Assembly: GCF_009914755.1 (NCBI RefSeq)
Contig: NC_060937.1
Length of the DNA: 64,000 nt
Reading direction: 5' to 3' (one strand)
Origin: the human T2T-CHM13v2.0 reference genome, Homo sapiens
The first letter of the stretch is position 1. Each line of letters begins with the position of its first letter. This document shows positions 27,502 through 31,746 of this stretch, piece by piece. Both the position numbers and the translations under genes were made by a program. The notes beneath the pieces are model-generated. The model worked only from the letters and a program-made list of their open reading frames with translations, was not told the origin of the DNA and made no database searches.

Positions 27502-27555
27502 CTTTCTTTCGCAGGTGCCTCCTCGGTTGTTCCTTTAAATTCGTTTGTCTGTGGA
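27502..27555 (-). CDS. TPTE2: TPTE2 coding micro-exon (54 nt): (S)PQTNEFKGTTEEAPAKE(S)
   Basis: ccgctag acceptor, AG|gtaagt donor. Confidence 0.93.
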
Positions 27556-28454
27556 CTAGCGGATGATAAGAGAATACAGTCAGAGAGGAGACATAATTCT
27601 GAATTTATATTTTGGAAAAATTACCTTTCATTACTCTAGACAGAAACCAATTAATTTCTGACTATTCATGTATACAGCACTATTGGAACCTGGAATGTCT
27701 ATTTTTCTTTATTAGAAATGAGGATGTATATGACGACAACCAAAATCTTAGGCTGGGGAAAATTGTAATGCTTCCCGATTTAAGTAAACCTCTTTATTAT
27801 GACCTCAGTCCCAATGTGTGACAGATTTTCTGGTGGCAATTATTTCAAACTCAACTCCAGTTTGTAGGTAGGCAGCCCTCTTATTCCATTCAATGTCCTG
27901 CTTAAAAGGCCCTCCATTAGCTCCTTACATTCACCCAGCATGGTGGTTTCTCATGCCCCACAAAAAGGGTCAGGTAACTAGAGGTCTGACACAGGGGCAC
28001 AATCCAATAGGATTTGAGGTTTGGAGCACCTGCCTCCGTGGTGGCAGAGTTCTGGAGGGTGGAGAACACCTCCAAGGCTCTTAGCTCTGTTGCTTTCTGC
28101 TGAAGGCTGCACAGTTCCCCAAGTACTCCTACTTCCTCCTCACTCCAAACAGGATTCTCTCTTCCCTCAGCCTACTCTGCTATGTCTGGTACACAGAAAA
28201 TCTGCTTTTCCAAAGCATTTGCCTGCTACTTACTAAGGGCGACAAGACAGTAACAGATGGAAGCCTCTCTCTATAGTCAGTTTCTTTTTTTCTAAACAAT
28301 GTTAAAATGTGGAAGTTATTTATACACGATACAGTGAGATGATAAAGAACCTGTGTCAAAGAAACACTGTATTATCGTGAACACATCTAAGAGTGAATCC
28401 CACTAATCTCGGTCTCTTTCTCTGTCACTGTTTTGTGTGTGTGTGTACATCTTT

Positions 28455-28762
28455 TGTTTTTTCTTTTTTTTCTTTTTTGCAACAAAGTTTCGCTCCTGCT
28501 GCCCAGGGTGGAATGCAGCGGCATGTTCTCAGCTCACTGCAAACTCCACTTCCCAAGGTTCAATCGATTCTCCTGCCTCACCCTCCTGAGGAGCTGGGAT
28601 TAGAGGCACCTGCCACCACACCTGGCTAGTTCTTGTAGTTTTAGTAGAGACAGGGTTTCACGATGTTTGCCAGCCTGGTCTTGAACACCTGATCTCAGGG
28701 CATCTGCCTGCTTCAGCCTTCCAAAGTGCTCAGATTACAGGTGTGAACCATTGCACCTGGCC
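28455..28762 (-). mobile_element. Diverged Alu
   Basis: Alu consensus; flanking direct repeat tgtgtacatctttt. Confidence 0.85.
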
Positions 28763-28786
28763 ATGTGTACATCTTTTATAATTCAC

Positions 28787-28840
28787 CTGTCACTGGGGGC
28801 TCTCTCAATGATGACTCCCGCCAGGGCATTCGGATCAGGA
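28787..28840 (-). CDS. TPTE2: Candidate alternative micro-exon (54 nt): (S)PDPNALAGVIIERAPSD(S), paralogous to the TPTE exon SPDPTDLAGVIIELGPND
   Basis: cctttag acceptor, AG|gtgaat donor, open phase-2 frame. Confidence 0.6.
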
Positions 28841-29889
28841 CTAAAGGACAAATATGGGCAGAGTCAGACACAATGCGTAATTCTAATGTTTTGCAATAAA
28901 TAGCTACAGTTAGTCTATGTGTCATTCCCTAGTTACACTTTAATTATTCACATGTACGTATATCACTAAATTGACCTGGGATGGCATTTGTCTTTTTATT
29001 AGAAATGAGGTTTCCTATGCCAACAGTGAGCATTTTAGGCTGTGAACATAGTGATGCATCCAGATTAAGTAAGGGTATCTACACCTCAATGTGTAACAGC
29101 ATTTTTGGAGAGCATTTAATTCTAGTTCAAATTTACTTTCTAAGTCCCGCTTCGTATAATCCCATCTGAGTTCCTCATTCTCTATCACCTCCAATCACCT
29201 CCTCACTTTTCACCCATCCTAGTTGTCTTTCCTGCCCAAAAGTTGCGGCCAAGTAGCTGGAGGCCTCAAGCAAGGGCTCCATCCCATGTGAGGGTGGGTA
29301 TGGGCAAAGGCAGTCAGCCTCACATAAAGGCAGAGCTCTGGAGGGGGTGAAATAATTCCAGGGTTATTAGCTCTGTTCTTTGTTTTGGCTAGGATTTTTC
29401 TGATCTTTGTCCACTCCTATCTCCTTCTCGCTGCAAGCAGGATTCGCTTCTCCCTTGGTCCACACTACTAGCACAGTCTCATTCTCACTGAATGGTAATG
29501 TGACAAACACTAACATAAAAAGCCTCCCTCTGTGAGTTCCTCCCCATTTTCCTACCTCTATCCAAAAAACAAAAGAACATTGCATACAAAGCTCATTCTG
29601 AGAGGACTCTAGAAATAGTTTCAAGGGAACTCCTTGTTCCCATGGATGCTTGTCACACTCAATAGCCCAACTCTCTCTTGTGTGTATGAATGCATGTATG
29701 TATGTGTTTGTATATGCATAGATACATGTATAACTGTATTCCTTGATATCGCATGGTGCATTGACCAGCCTACTAGAAGATACTCTCAATTCATACACAG
29801 GGCACTGCCAAAGAACTTAACATGTACATAGTAAGACAACATGTAACTTCCTAGACTTAAGATTTTCAGTTCAAAATAATTCCAATTGC

Positions 29890-30220
29890 TTTTGTTTTGT
29901 TTTTTTTGTTGTTGTTGTTTGTTGCTGTTGTTTGTTTTTTGAGACAGAGTCTCACTCTGTCACCCAAGCTGGAGTGCAGTGGCATGATCTCAGCTCACTG
30001 CAACCTCTGCCTCCCAGGTTCAAGCAATTCTCCTGCCTCAGCCTCCCAACTAGCAGGGACTACAGGTGCCCGCCACCACACCCAGCTAATTTTGTATTTT
30101 TAGTAGAGATGGGGTTTCACCATGTTGGCCAGGCTGGCCTTGAACTACTGATCTCGTTATCCACCCACCCTGGCCTCCCAAAGTGCTGGGACTACAGGCC
30201 TGAGCCACCGCACCCGACCT
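29890..30220 (-). mobile_element. AluS element
   Basis: Alu consensus with (TTG)n tail. Confidence 0.9.
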
Positions 30221-30840
30221 TCCAACTACTTTTCAACCTGTAAATTGCCTTACCCTTACAGAAGTCATGTGTGTATTTGGTTCTTTGGAATCTGCCATGC
30301 CATTTACCCTACACATCATACTTTATATGACTGCAACACATACTTCACACCTATCTAAGACTCACTGACTCAAGAGTTCACCAAAACTCTCTACCACTGG
30401 AGCTGGCCAATGCACGACAGCCTTTTGTGGGTGAATTTCTTTTAAATTCAACTCTACTGTGTAGGCATTCCTCCTCCTAATCCCAACTATGGCCCACTTC
30501 CTGGATCTCTCCATCACGTCTTTCCTTTCACCCATCATGCTAGTCTTTCCTGTCCATGGGACACAGGCTAGTAGCTGTGGGTCTAAGGAAGGTCTGCATC
30601 CAATGAGGTGCTGTGCTTGTGTTTGTGTTTTAGCACCAACCTCATATGTTGACAGAGCTCTGAAGTGTGAGGGACAAGTCCATGTTCCATTAGCTCTGTT
30701 CTTTTCTGCCCAGGGCTTCCCTGCTCCTTGTCAGCTGCTATCTCCTCCATATTGCAAATAGGATTTTCTCCTCCCTTCTGTCAATCTGGTACGCTCTCAA
30801 ACTCAGGAAATCTGAGTCCTTTAAGAAGCTGCGAAATCTC

Positions 30841-31746
30841 GGAGGAGGAGCCAAGATGGCCGAACAGGAACAGCTCCGTTCTACAGCTCCCAGCGTGAGC
30901 GACGCGGAAGACAGTGATTTCTGCATTTCCATCTGAGGTACTGGGTTCATCTCACTAGGGAGTGCCAGACAGTGGGCGCAGGTCAGTGGGTGCGCGCACC
31001 GTGCGCGAGCCGAAGCAGGGCGAGGCATTGCCTCACTTGGGAAGTGCAAGGGGTCAGGGAGTTCCCTTTCCGAGTCAAAGAAAGGGGTGACAGACGGCAC
31101 CTGGAAAATCGGGTCACTCCCACCCGAATATTGCGCTTTTCTGAGGGGCTTAAAAAACGGTGCACCGCGAGATTATATCCCGCACCTGTCTTGGAGGGTC
31201 CTACGCCCACGGAGTCTCGCTGATTGCTAGCACAGCAGTCTGAGATCAAACTGCAAGGCGGCAGCGAGGCTGGGGGAGGGGCGCCCGCCATTGCCCAGGC
31301 TTGATTAGGTAAACAAAGCAGCCGGGAAGCTCGAACTGGGCGGAGCCCACCACAGCTCAAGGAGGCCTGCCTGCCTCTGTAGGCTCCACCTCTGGGGGCA
31401 GGGCACAGACAAACAAAAAGACAGCAGTAACCTCTGCAGACTTAAATGTCCCTGTCTGACAGCTTTGAAGAGAGCAGTGGTTCTCCCAGCACGCAGCTGG
31501 AGATCTGAGAACGGGCAGACTGCCTCCTCAAGTGGGTCCCTGACCCCTGACCCCTGAGCAGCCTAACTGGGAGGCACCCCCCAGCAGGGGCACACTGACA
31601 CCTCACATGGCAGGGTATTCCAACAGACCTGCAGCTGAGGGTCCTGTCTGTTAGAAAGAAAACTAACAAACAGAAAGGACATCCACACCAAAAACCCATC
31701 TGTACATCACCATCATCAAAGACCAAAAGTAGATAAAACCACAAAG
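30841..31746. promoter_or_regulatory. L1 5'UTR: sense promoter (YY1 site caagatggccg) and antisense promoter, CpG-rich
   Basis: Established L1 5'UTR architecture; many CpGs retained. Confidence 0.8.
30983..31291 (-). CDS. L1 ORF0 (antisense), MAGAPPPASLPPCSLISDCC..., 102 aa here
   Basis: ATG at 31291; donor sites after ORF0 nt 106 (31186) and nt 191 (31101) are intact. Confidence 0.7.
   Translation of the reverse strand: MAGAPPPASLPPCSLISDCCASNQRDSVGVGPSKTGAGYNLAVHRFLSPSEKRNIRVGVTRFSRCRLSPLSLTRKGNSLTPCTSQVRQCLALLRLAHGARTH

What the first reader, a model, noticed from the sequence alone, without database searches (positions are those of the whole stretch)
27502..31291. Intronic L1 positioned to make an in-frame ORF0-TPTE2 fusion from its antisense promoter
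Seen: the full-length L1 is on the + strand, so its antisense promoter points down TPTE2 toward the exons at 28840, 27555 and 26982. The ORF0 ATG (31291) is intact. The donor TCCAG|gtgccg after 31101 falls at ORF0 nt 191, which is 63 codons plus 2 nt (phase 2), the phase of every downstream TPTE2 exon here. The junction AG|T is Ser. Knowledge: L1 ORF0 has two donors and can fuse with nearby exons; L1 antisense promoters are active in germline and hypomethylated tumours. Inference: a chimera of 63 ORF0 residues plus nearly all of TPTE2 (losing only MNE) could be made independently of the native promoter. The first donor (31186, phase 1) would be out of frame.
Basis: partly seen in the sequence, partly recalled or inferred. 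Interest (0 to 1): 0.8.

Follow-up and report, generated by a model that had tools for sequence, protein, structure and literature searches.

The report
Intronic L1 with in-frame ORF0 donor
A young LINE-1 lying backwards in an early TPTE2 intron keeps an intact antisense ORF0 whose second splice donor is in frame with the gene's next exons, but this is a one-in-three coincidence of an ordinary element, and no transcript evidence for the fusion was found.

Summary
ORF0 starts at 31291 on the minus strand. The donor after 31101 is ORF0 nt 191, phase 2. Joined by coordinate to exon 27555, 26982 or the exon-like 28840, it stays open through every TPTE2 coding exon in the window.

The rest is ordinary:
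- The phases are family constants: SD2 is phase 2 in 28 of 29 closest L1 copies.
- Three donors cover phases 1, 2 and 0, so some donor fits any exon.
- The in-frame donor (CAG|GTGCCG) is the weakest of the three.
- 46 of 60 GENCODE v25 start sites in comparable antisense L1s lie at or downstream of the ORF0 ATG position.

No support was found for a transcript from this L1: none in the 2015-EST catalogue, GENCODE v25 L1-start table, RefSeq table supplied or six full-text searches.

[quoted passage not shown] I could not trace the source.

New here: the insertion is TPTE2-specific, with empty sites in the paralogues. It is the only L1 5'UTR in the gene.

A plausible latent alternative promoter of a known kind; modest interest.

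The parts
30841..36913 (+). Full-length-sized L1PA element (5'UTR 30841-31746, ORF1 pieces, ORF2 pieces, 3'UTR, A-tail), antisense to TPTE2. Both ORFs are broken.
   Evidence: Pfam finds Tnp_22_trimer, Transposase_22, Tnp_22_dsRBD, Exo_endo_phos and RVT_1. It is 96.5-97.3% identical to its 29 closest genomic copies over 481 nt.
30823..30832 (+). Target-site duplication, copy 1 (AAGAAGCTGC), followed by 8 extra nt (30833-30840) before the L1 start.
   Evidence: Empty sites in three paralogues carry the motif once.
36912..36921 (+). Target-site duplication, copy 2.
31292..31440 (-). Presumed antisense-promoter start zone and leader (L1 positions 452-600). It contains no ATG.
   Evidence: [quoted passage not shown] It was not measured for this copy.
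30983..31291 (-). ORF0, the 102-aa variant, with ATG at 31291.
   Evidence: The ATG context is identical in 29 of 29 relatives.
31178..31189 (-). Donor 1: CAG|GTGCGG, last exon base 31186, ORF0 nt 106, phase 1, out of frame with TPTE2.
31093..31104 (-). Donor 2: CAG|GTGCCG, last exon base 31101, ORF0 nt 191, phase 2, in frame with TPTE2 exons. It is the weakest of the three donors.
31029..31040 (-). Donor 3: CAA|GTGAGG, last exon base 31037, nt 255, phase 0, out of frame.
28787..28840 (-). Unannotated 54-nt exon-like copy, open in phase 2, with AG and GT intact. It is the paralogue of a chr21 open 54-nt stretch.
   Evidence: and the gene table supplied with the finding.
27502..27555 (-). TPTE2 coding exon (54 nt, phase 2 in and out); the nearest annotated acceptor.
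   Evidence: Gene table supplied with the finding.
26929..26982 (-). TPTE2 coding exon (54 nt, phase 2 in and out).
   Evidence: Gene table supplied with the finding.
37278..37331 (-). TPTE2 start-codon exon (coding 37288-37278), 353 nt from the L1 tail. An L1-initiated transcript would bypass it.
   Evidence: Gene table supplied with the finding.

Best explanation
This is an ordinary, young (L1PA2/3-like) L1 that is dead for coding. It inserted antisense into the TPTE2 intron just after the start-codon exon, after TPTE2 split from its paralogues. Like most copies of its family, it still carries the standard antisense module: an ATG-free leader, an ORF0 ATG in good context, and three GT donors in phases 1, 2 and 0.

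The second donor matches the phase-2 exons downstream, so an ORF0(63 aa)-TPTE2 reading frame exists on paper. The match is a coincidence of fixed family phases with a run of phase-2 exons.

If the antisense promoter fires here, for example when methylation is lost, I expect most products not to be the in-frame fusion (inferred):
- Transcripts spliced from the stronger first donor end in a short frameshifted peptide.
- Transcripts that start downstream of the ORF0 ATG present TPTE2 Met41 as the first AUG, whichever donor is used.

Shown: the anatomy, phases, open frames, copy comparison and insertion history. Inferred: promoter activity, donor choice and translation.
For: - Phases and frames.
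- Family constancy: the ATG context is the same in 29 of 29 closest copies. SD1 is phase 1 in 29 of 29. SD2 is phase 2 in 28 of 29. The same SD2 12-mer occurs in 16 of 29.
- Donor strength: SD2 scores 3.9 bits, against 8.0 for SD1 and 8.0 for SD3. The 8 TPTE2 donors compared (7 annotated exons plus 28787) score 5.5-12.5.
- Competing signals: three acceptor-like decoys (30659, 29557, 29337) and five poly(A) hexamers lie between the L1 donors and exon 27555.
- Start sites: of 60 GENCODE v25 start sites inside full-length antisense L1HS/L1PA2/L1PA3, only 14 lie upstream of L1 position 451. The median is 409.
- With a start downstream of the ATG, the first AUG is in-frame Met41 for all three donors.
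- No transcript support: Criscione 2016 Table S1 (2015 ESTs) has one TPTE2 row. It comes from an L1PA15-16 at the gene's 3' end, not from this L1.
- TPTE2 is absent from the other nine supplementary files of that paper and from Jonsson 2019 Supplementary Data 2.
- None of the 8 RefSeq transcripts has an exon in 30841-31440 (table supplied with the finding).
- Base rate quoted by Criscione from Denli 2015: 57 of about 3200 genic ORF0 loci were seen fused.
- Insertion history: three paralogous empty sites were read at base level.
Against: [quoted passage not shown] This L1 is the only L1 5'UTR in the whole gene span, so an earlier report may concern this very promoter. I could not trace it.
- The module looks undamaged. 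It has 1 private and 10 of 481 minority-state positions, equal to the median of its relatives. It holds 26 CpG in 481 nt, and CpG observed/expected is 0.48 over the 5'UTR.
- L1HS, L1PA2 and L1PA3 are exactly the classes activated by DNMT1 loss (passages).
- U1-duplex energies rank SD2 (-6.8 kcal/mol) close to SD1 (-7.2), so the donor handicap is softer than the matrix suggests.
- The matrix rests on recalled frequencies.
- GENCODE 5' ends are often incomplete, which pushes apparent start sites downstream.
Confidence: 0.6

Rival explanations
1. The antisense promoter of this L1 is used in the germline, in pluripotent cells or in hypomethylated tumours. The donor after 31101 is spliced to 28840, 27555 or 26982 often enough to make a translated ORF0(63 aa)-TPTE2 fusion protein.
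For: - The frame is open through all coding exons in the window.
- The ATG and its context are intact and there is no upstream ATG.
- The module is family-typical.
- Reviews state that ORF0 has two donors and forms fusions.
- Young L1s act as alternative promoters on demethylation.
- TPTE2 is flagged as previously identified in Criscione Table S1, and this is the only L1 5'UTR in the gene.
Against: - It is the weakest donor of the three, and a stronger out-of-frame donor lies upstream.
- 46 of 60 comparable annotated start sites lie at or below the ATG position.
- 0 ESTs from this L1 among the 2015 listed, although testis is a major EST source in that catalogue.
- No GENCODE v25 or RefSeq start in this L1 (and the table supplied with the finding).
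Confidence: 0.15
2. The element is a silent passenger. The antisense promoter of this copy never fires to any useful degree, because it is methylated or KRAB-ZNF-bound wherever TPTE2 chromatin is open. The L1 matters only as 6 kb of intron.
For: - No transcript evidence was found in any source I could read.
- The 5'UTR is CpG-rich, so it is a good methylation target.
- The quoted base rate of observed ORF0 fusions is about 2%.
Against: - The 'previously identified' flag for TPTE2.
- Antisense activity of L1PA2-8 5'UTRs is widely documented.
- The catalogues searched are EST- and annotation-based and are known to be incomplete. Criscione state that other published studies identified 44 additional L1 ASP transcripts they did not recover.
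Confidence: 0.25

Closest known systems
L1 ORF0-gene exon fusions (Denli et al. 2015, Cell 163:583). The paper is not held; I know it here only through passages in other papers.
   Same: - An antisense ORF0 in an L1PA 5'UTR with an ATG in good context.
- Two CAG|GT donors inside ORF0.
- A host-gene exon downstream on the same strand.
- A frame-compatible junction.
   Different: - No RNA, ribosome or peptide evidence exists for this locus.
- ORF0 here is the 102-aa variant, not the 71-aa or 70-aa form that the papers I read give.
- Its second donor reads GTGCCG. The four close copies with a 71-aa ORF0 carry the one-base-shorter 12-mer at this site: GTGCGT in three of them, while the fourth (CCAGCTGCGTC) has no GT there.
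- I could not check whether TPTE2 is among the 57 reported fusions.
L1 antisense-promoter chimeric transcripts, for example L1-MET from an intronic L1PA2. Catalogues: Criscione 2016 (PMC4908685) and Jonsson 2019 (PMC6639357).
   Same: - A full-length young L1, antisense in an early intron and downstream of the native start site.
- A promoter zone within the first 600 bp of the 5'UTR.
- Methylation-sensitive as a class.
   Different: - This L1 has no supporting EST in Criscione Table S1.
- It has no GENCODE v25 start site in Jonsson Supplementary Data 2.
TPIP-C2, a TPTE2 transcript with a repeat-derived 5'UTR (PMC3229583; passages read).
   Same: Same gene, expressed in testis, with an alternative 5' end made of repeats.
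   Different: It arises in intron 15 from an AluSx and an L3/CR1 fragment by exon extension. It is not from this L1 and not from an L1 antisense promoter.

Membership tests
Primate LINE-1 (L1PA), full-length insertion | About 6 kb, with a roughly 900-nt 5'UTR, ORF1p and ORF2p (EN and RT) domains, and an A-tail. | tested here: met
   The element spans 30841 to about 36913 and the 5'UTR is 906 nt. Pfam finds Tnp_22_trimer, Transposase_22, Tnp_22_dsRBD, Exo_endo_phos and RVT_1.
Primate LINE-1 (L1PA), full-length insertion | Target-site duplication and an empty site elsewhere. | tested here: met
   A 10-nt duplication is present. The paralogues at chr21:10.587 Mb, chr13:13.52 Mb and chrY:27.32 Mb carry the site once, uninterrupted.
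Retrotransposition-competent L1 | Intact ORF1 and ORF2. | tested here: not met
   ORF1 is in two overlapping frames (163 and 196 aa). ORF2 ends after 822 aa and further pieces follow.
ORF0-gene fusion locus | Intact ORF0 ATG and an ATG-free leader. | tested here: met
ORF0-gene fusion locus | A GT donor inside ORF0 whose phase matches a downstream same-strand exon. | tested here: met
   The donor after 31101 is phase 2, and exons 28840, 27555 and 26982 accept phase 2. The frame stays open.
ORF0-gene fusion locus | An observed chimeric RNA, ribosome footprint or peptide. | not testable with these tools
   No expression data are on hand. Denli 2015 is not held. The literature searches found no such report.
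L1 antisense-promoter chimeric transcript | A cDNA or EST that starts antisense in the L1 5'UTR and is spliced to a gene exon. | tested here: inconclusive
   There are 0 ESTs from this L1 in Criscione Table S1. The single TPTE2 row comes from an L1PA15-16. [quoted passage not shown]

The most novel reading that the evidence does not exclude
A TPTE2-specific L1 insertion, absent from TPTE and the other paralogues, has given this testis phosphatase gene a second, methylation-gated promoter. From it, germ cells or hypomethylated tumours make a lineage-specific protein: an ORF0-derived 63-residue head on an otherwise complete voltage-sensor-type phosphoinositide phosphatase. The same promoter also yields an N-terminally shortened form from Met41.
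Probability: 0.1. Interest if true: 0.5.

Novelty: new member of a known kind. Interest (0 to 1): 0.25.

Why it matters
If the fusion were made, it would be one more case of a retrotransposon supplying both a promoter and a coding head to a host gene. Here the gene belongs to a cancer-testis-type family, so tumours might present the junction as an antigen.

As it stands, the locus is a well-formed candidate of a well-known class. Its value is as a precise, cheaply testable prediction, not as a discovery.

The checks also give three general cautions for calls of this kind:
- ORF0 donor phases are fixed family properties.
- The in-frame donor differs between ORF0 variants.
- Most annotated antisense starts lie below the ORF0 ATG.

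Tried and rejected
- Papers not held: Denli 2015, Matlik 2006 and Speek 2001. The published positions of the two ORF0 donors could therefore not be read. Equating them with nt 106 and nt 191 is an inference: these are the only two CAG|GT sites inside the first 71 codons.
- Six full-text searches each returned 0 papers: TPTE2 with ORF0; with antisense promoter plus LINE-1; with LINE-1 plus chimeric; with L1PA; and with antisense promoter. One further search failed on a too-short term.
- TPTE2 plus retrotransposon gave 6 papers and TPTE2 plus transposable element gave 4. The only one of these I opened, TPIP-C2, concerns intron 15 and an L3/CR1 fragment.
- Paper reading closed, before I could look for TPTE2 in the C-GATE supplement. 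Supplements in PDF form and the cut part of Jonsson Supplementary Data 1 were not seen.
- I considered that the frame match might be special to this copy and rejected it, because the phases are family-wide.
- I considered that the antisense module might be damaged and rejected it.
- I considered that another L1 in TPTE2 could supply a 5'UTR promoter and rejected it. No other match to the 906-nt 5'UTR exists from -43.1 kb to +98 kb in window coordinates.
- The donor matrix uses recalled nucleotide frequencies, and the acceptor scan is a crude pyrimidine count. Both rank sites only.
- The subfamily name (L1PA2 or short L1PA3) rests on the 906-nt 5'UTR and on 10 of 481 (about 2%) minority-state positions, judged by recalled criteria. 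No reference set was available to test it.
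Full report
**What is there**

The window is chr13:18,662,001-18,726,000 of T2T-CHM13. TPTE2 runs on the minus strand.

A 6.07-kb L1 lies on the plus strand from 30841 to its A-tail at about 36913. It sits in the 9.7-kb intron between the start-codon exon (37331-37278) and exon 27555-27502.
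- The 5'UTR is 906 nt.
- Pfam finds the three ORF1p domains, the endonuclease and the reverse transcriptase.
- ORF1 is split into two overlapping frames and ORF2 ends after 822 aa. The element is therefore full-length in size but cannot code.

The element is flanked by a 10-nt target-site duplication at 30823-30832 and 36912-36921.

**Checking the observation**

On the minus strand, the ORF0 ATG has its A at 31291 (L1 position 451). ORF0 is open for 102 aa.

There are three donors:

| Donor | Motif | Last exon base | ORF0 nt | Phase |
|---|---|---|---|---|
| 1 | CAG\|GTGCGG | 31186 | 106 | 1 |
| 2 | CAG\|GTGCCG | 31101 | 191 | 2 |

The start exon carries 11 coding nt. The 54-nt exons that follow keep phase 2.

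Joined by coordinate, ORF0 nt 1-191 plus exon 27555, exon 26982, or 28840 then 27555, stays open through every coding exon in the window. The other two donors run into stops at codons 55-91. So the arithmetic and both junction strings are correct.

Two details need correcting:
- 28840-28787 is not in any of the 8 RefSeq TPTE2 transcripts (table supplied with the finding).
- It is nonetheless an open, splice-site-bearing 54-nt copy. Its chr21 counterpart is also open. From memory, that chr21 stretch is a coding exon of TPTE.

**Is it more than chance?**

I fetched the 29 closest L1 copies in the same genome. They are 96.5-97.3% identical over 481 nt. Counts come:
- The ATG context is identical in 29 of 29.
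- Donor 1 is phase 1 in 29 of 29.
- Donor 2 is phase 2 in 28 of 29.
- The same donor-2 12-mer occurs in 16 of 29.

The phases are fixed properties of the family. With donors in phases 1, 2 and 0, some donor is in frame with any downstream exon. The match of one named donor is a 1-in-3 event.

**How good is the in-frame donor?**

I used a position matrix built from recalled human donor frequencies:
- Donor 2 scores 3.9 bits.
- Donors 1 and 3 each score 8.0 bits.
- The 8 TPTE2 donors compared score 5.5-12.5 bits.

U1-duplex energies are closer: -6.8 kcal/mol for donor 2, -7.2 for donor 1 and -5.1 for donor 3.

Among the relatives, the four copies with a 71-aa ORF0 all carry a 12-mer one base shorter at this site. 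Three of them read GTGCGT there; the fourth has no GT at that position. Copies with GTGCCG-type donors have the 102-aa ORF0 unless broken elsewhere. The papers I could read give ORF0 as 70 or 71 aa. So the donor here is not the same sequence as in the described form.

Between the L1 donors and exon 27555 a crude scan finds three acceptor-like decoys and five poly(A) hexamers.

**Would the transcript include the ORF0 ATG?**

The likely leader, 31440-31292, has no ATG.

However, in Jonsson 2019 Supplementary Data 2 (GENCODE v25 start sites inside L1s; both parts read) I counted 60 distinct start sites. These are in full-length (5.9 kb or more) L1HS, L1PA2 and L1PA3 lying antisense to the gene.
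- I dropped rows on the same strand as the gene, shorter elements and older subfamilies.
- Only 14 of the 60 lie upstream of L1 position 451, and the median is 409 (which corrects).
- Annotated 5' ends can be incomplete, so this is a soft argument.

If the start is downstream of the ATG, the first AUG of the spliced RNA is the in-frame Met41 of TPTE2, whichever donor is used. An L1-driven transcript could therefore make a slightly shortened TPTE2 without any fusion.

**Is the module intact?**

Yes, as far as sequence can tell.
- In the 481-nt promoter/ORF0 segment, the window copy differs from at least 26 of 29 relatives at one position (31167).
- It is in the minority state at 10 of 481 positions, equal to the median of its relatives.
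- It keeps 26 CpG there, against a median of 25 in the relatives.

**History**

The flanks of the L1 are adjacent in the paralogues. I read the empty site, carrying the target motif once, at base level in three places:
- chr21:10.587 Mb
- chr13:13.52 Mb
- chrY:27.32 Mb

Further paralogous and internal copies also show adjacent flanks in the hit tables.

The insertion is therefore specific to TPTE2. It is younger than the 4-5% divergence seen between the left flanks.

Across the whole gene span (window -43.1 kb to +98 kb) no other match to the 906-nt 5'UTR exists. All other L1 pieces are 5'-truncated.

**Evidence for use**

I found none for this L1.
- Criscione 2016 Table S1 (2015 ESTs, 988 genes) has one TPTE2 row. 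It is EST AW393549 from an L1PA15-16 at the gene's 3' end.
- TPTE2 occurs in none of that paper's other nine supplementary files, which include the long-read set.
- Jonsson Supplementary Data 2 has no TPTE2 row.
- Five full-text searches pairing TPTE2 with ORF0, antisense promoter, LINE-1 or L1PA terms returned nothing.

- The sources behind that column include Denli's ORF0 fusions and C-GATE.
- None of them could be opened.
- Because this is the only L1 5'UTR in the gene, an earlier report based on the 5'UTR promoter would have to be this element.

In DNMT1-null neural progenitors, TPTE, which lacks this L1, is listed as strongly induced (log2 fold change 3.8). TPTE2P3 and TPTE2P6 are also listed. 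TPTE2 itself is not in the stored part of that table, which was cut. So demethylation activates this family by routes other than this L1.

**Verdict**

The frame match is coincidental, the in-frame donor is the weakest of the three, and no transcript support was found.

My best reading, at 0.6, is a latent alternative promoter whose products, if any, are mostly not the in-frame fusion.

Noticed in passing
window 37331-37278, 28840-28787, 27555-27502, 26982-26929: There are four 54-nt phase-2 exon copies with near-identical acceptor tracts. Their flanks recur inside the gene, with hits at window positions about 26241, 26566, 27122, 38491 and 39581, and in all paralogues. The 5' coding part of TPTE2 is a tandemly duplicated exon module, and the L1 sits in one module.
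   Followed up: partly
window 28787-28840: An open exon-like copy with intact AG and GT is not in the 8 RefSeq TPTE2 transcripts. The chr21 and chr13 p-arm counterparts are also open, and their donor reads GTGAGT where TPTE2 has GTGAAT. This may explain why TPTE2 skips it.
   Followed up: partly
window 30833-30840 and 36884-36900: Eight extra bases sit between the target-site duplication and the L1 5' end. A 17-nt non-A stretch sits between the A-rich tail and a final run of 13 A. These may be untemplated or microhomology bases at the 5' end and a very short 3' transduction.
   Followed up: no
L043 (chr21:10.585 Mb) and L044 (chr13:13.520 Mb): The chr13 short-arm copy and the chr21 copy gave identical extracts (12-nt acceptor end, 54-nt exon, 9-nt donor) and the same identity to the window over the 161-nt stretch. 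Both have the empty L1 site. This is a very recent acrocentric short-arm duplicate of the TPTE locus.
   Followed up: no
L012-L041, at the position aligned with window 31093-31104: ORF0 comes in two lengths among close L1 copies: 102 aa (20 of 29) and 71 aa (4 of 29). The difference follows a 1-nt length change immediately after the GT of the second donor, so ORF0 length and donor strength change together.
   Followed up: partly
literature: Criscione 2016 Table S1; Jonsson 2019 Supplementary Data 1: The TPTE2 pseudogenes TPTE2P1, TPTE2P3 and TPTE2P6 have 8, 5 and 3 ESTs that start antisense in old L1PA15-16 fragments. TPTE, TPTE2P3 and TPTE2P6 are induced in DNMT1-null neural progenitors.
   Followed up: no
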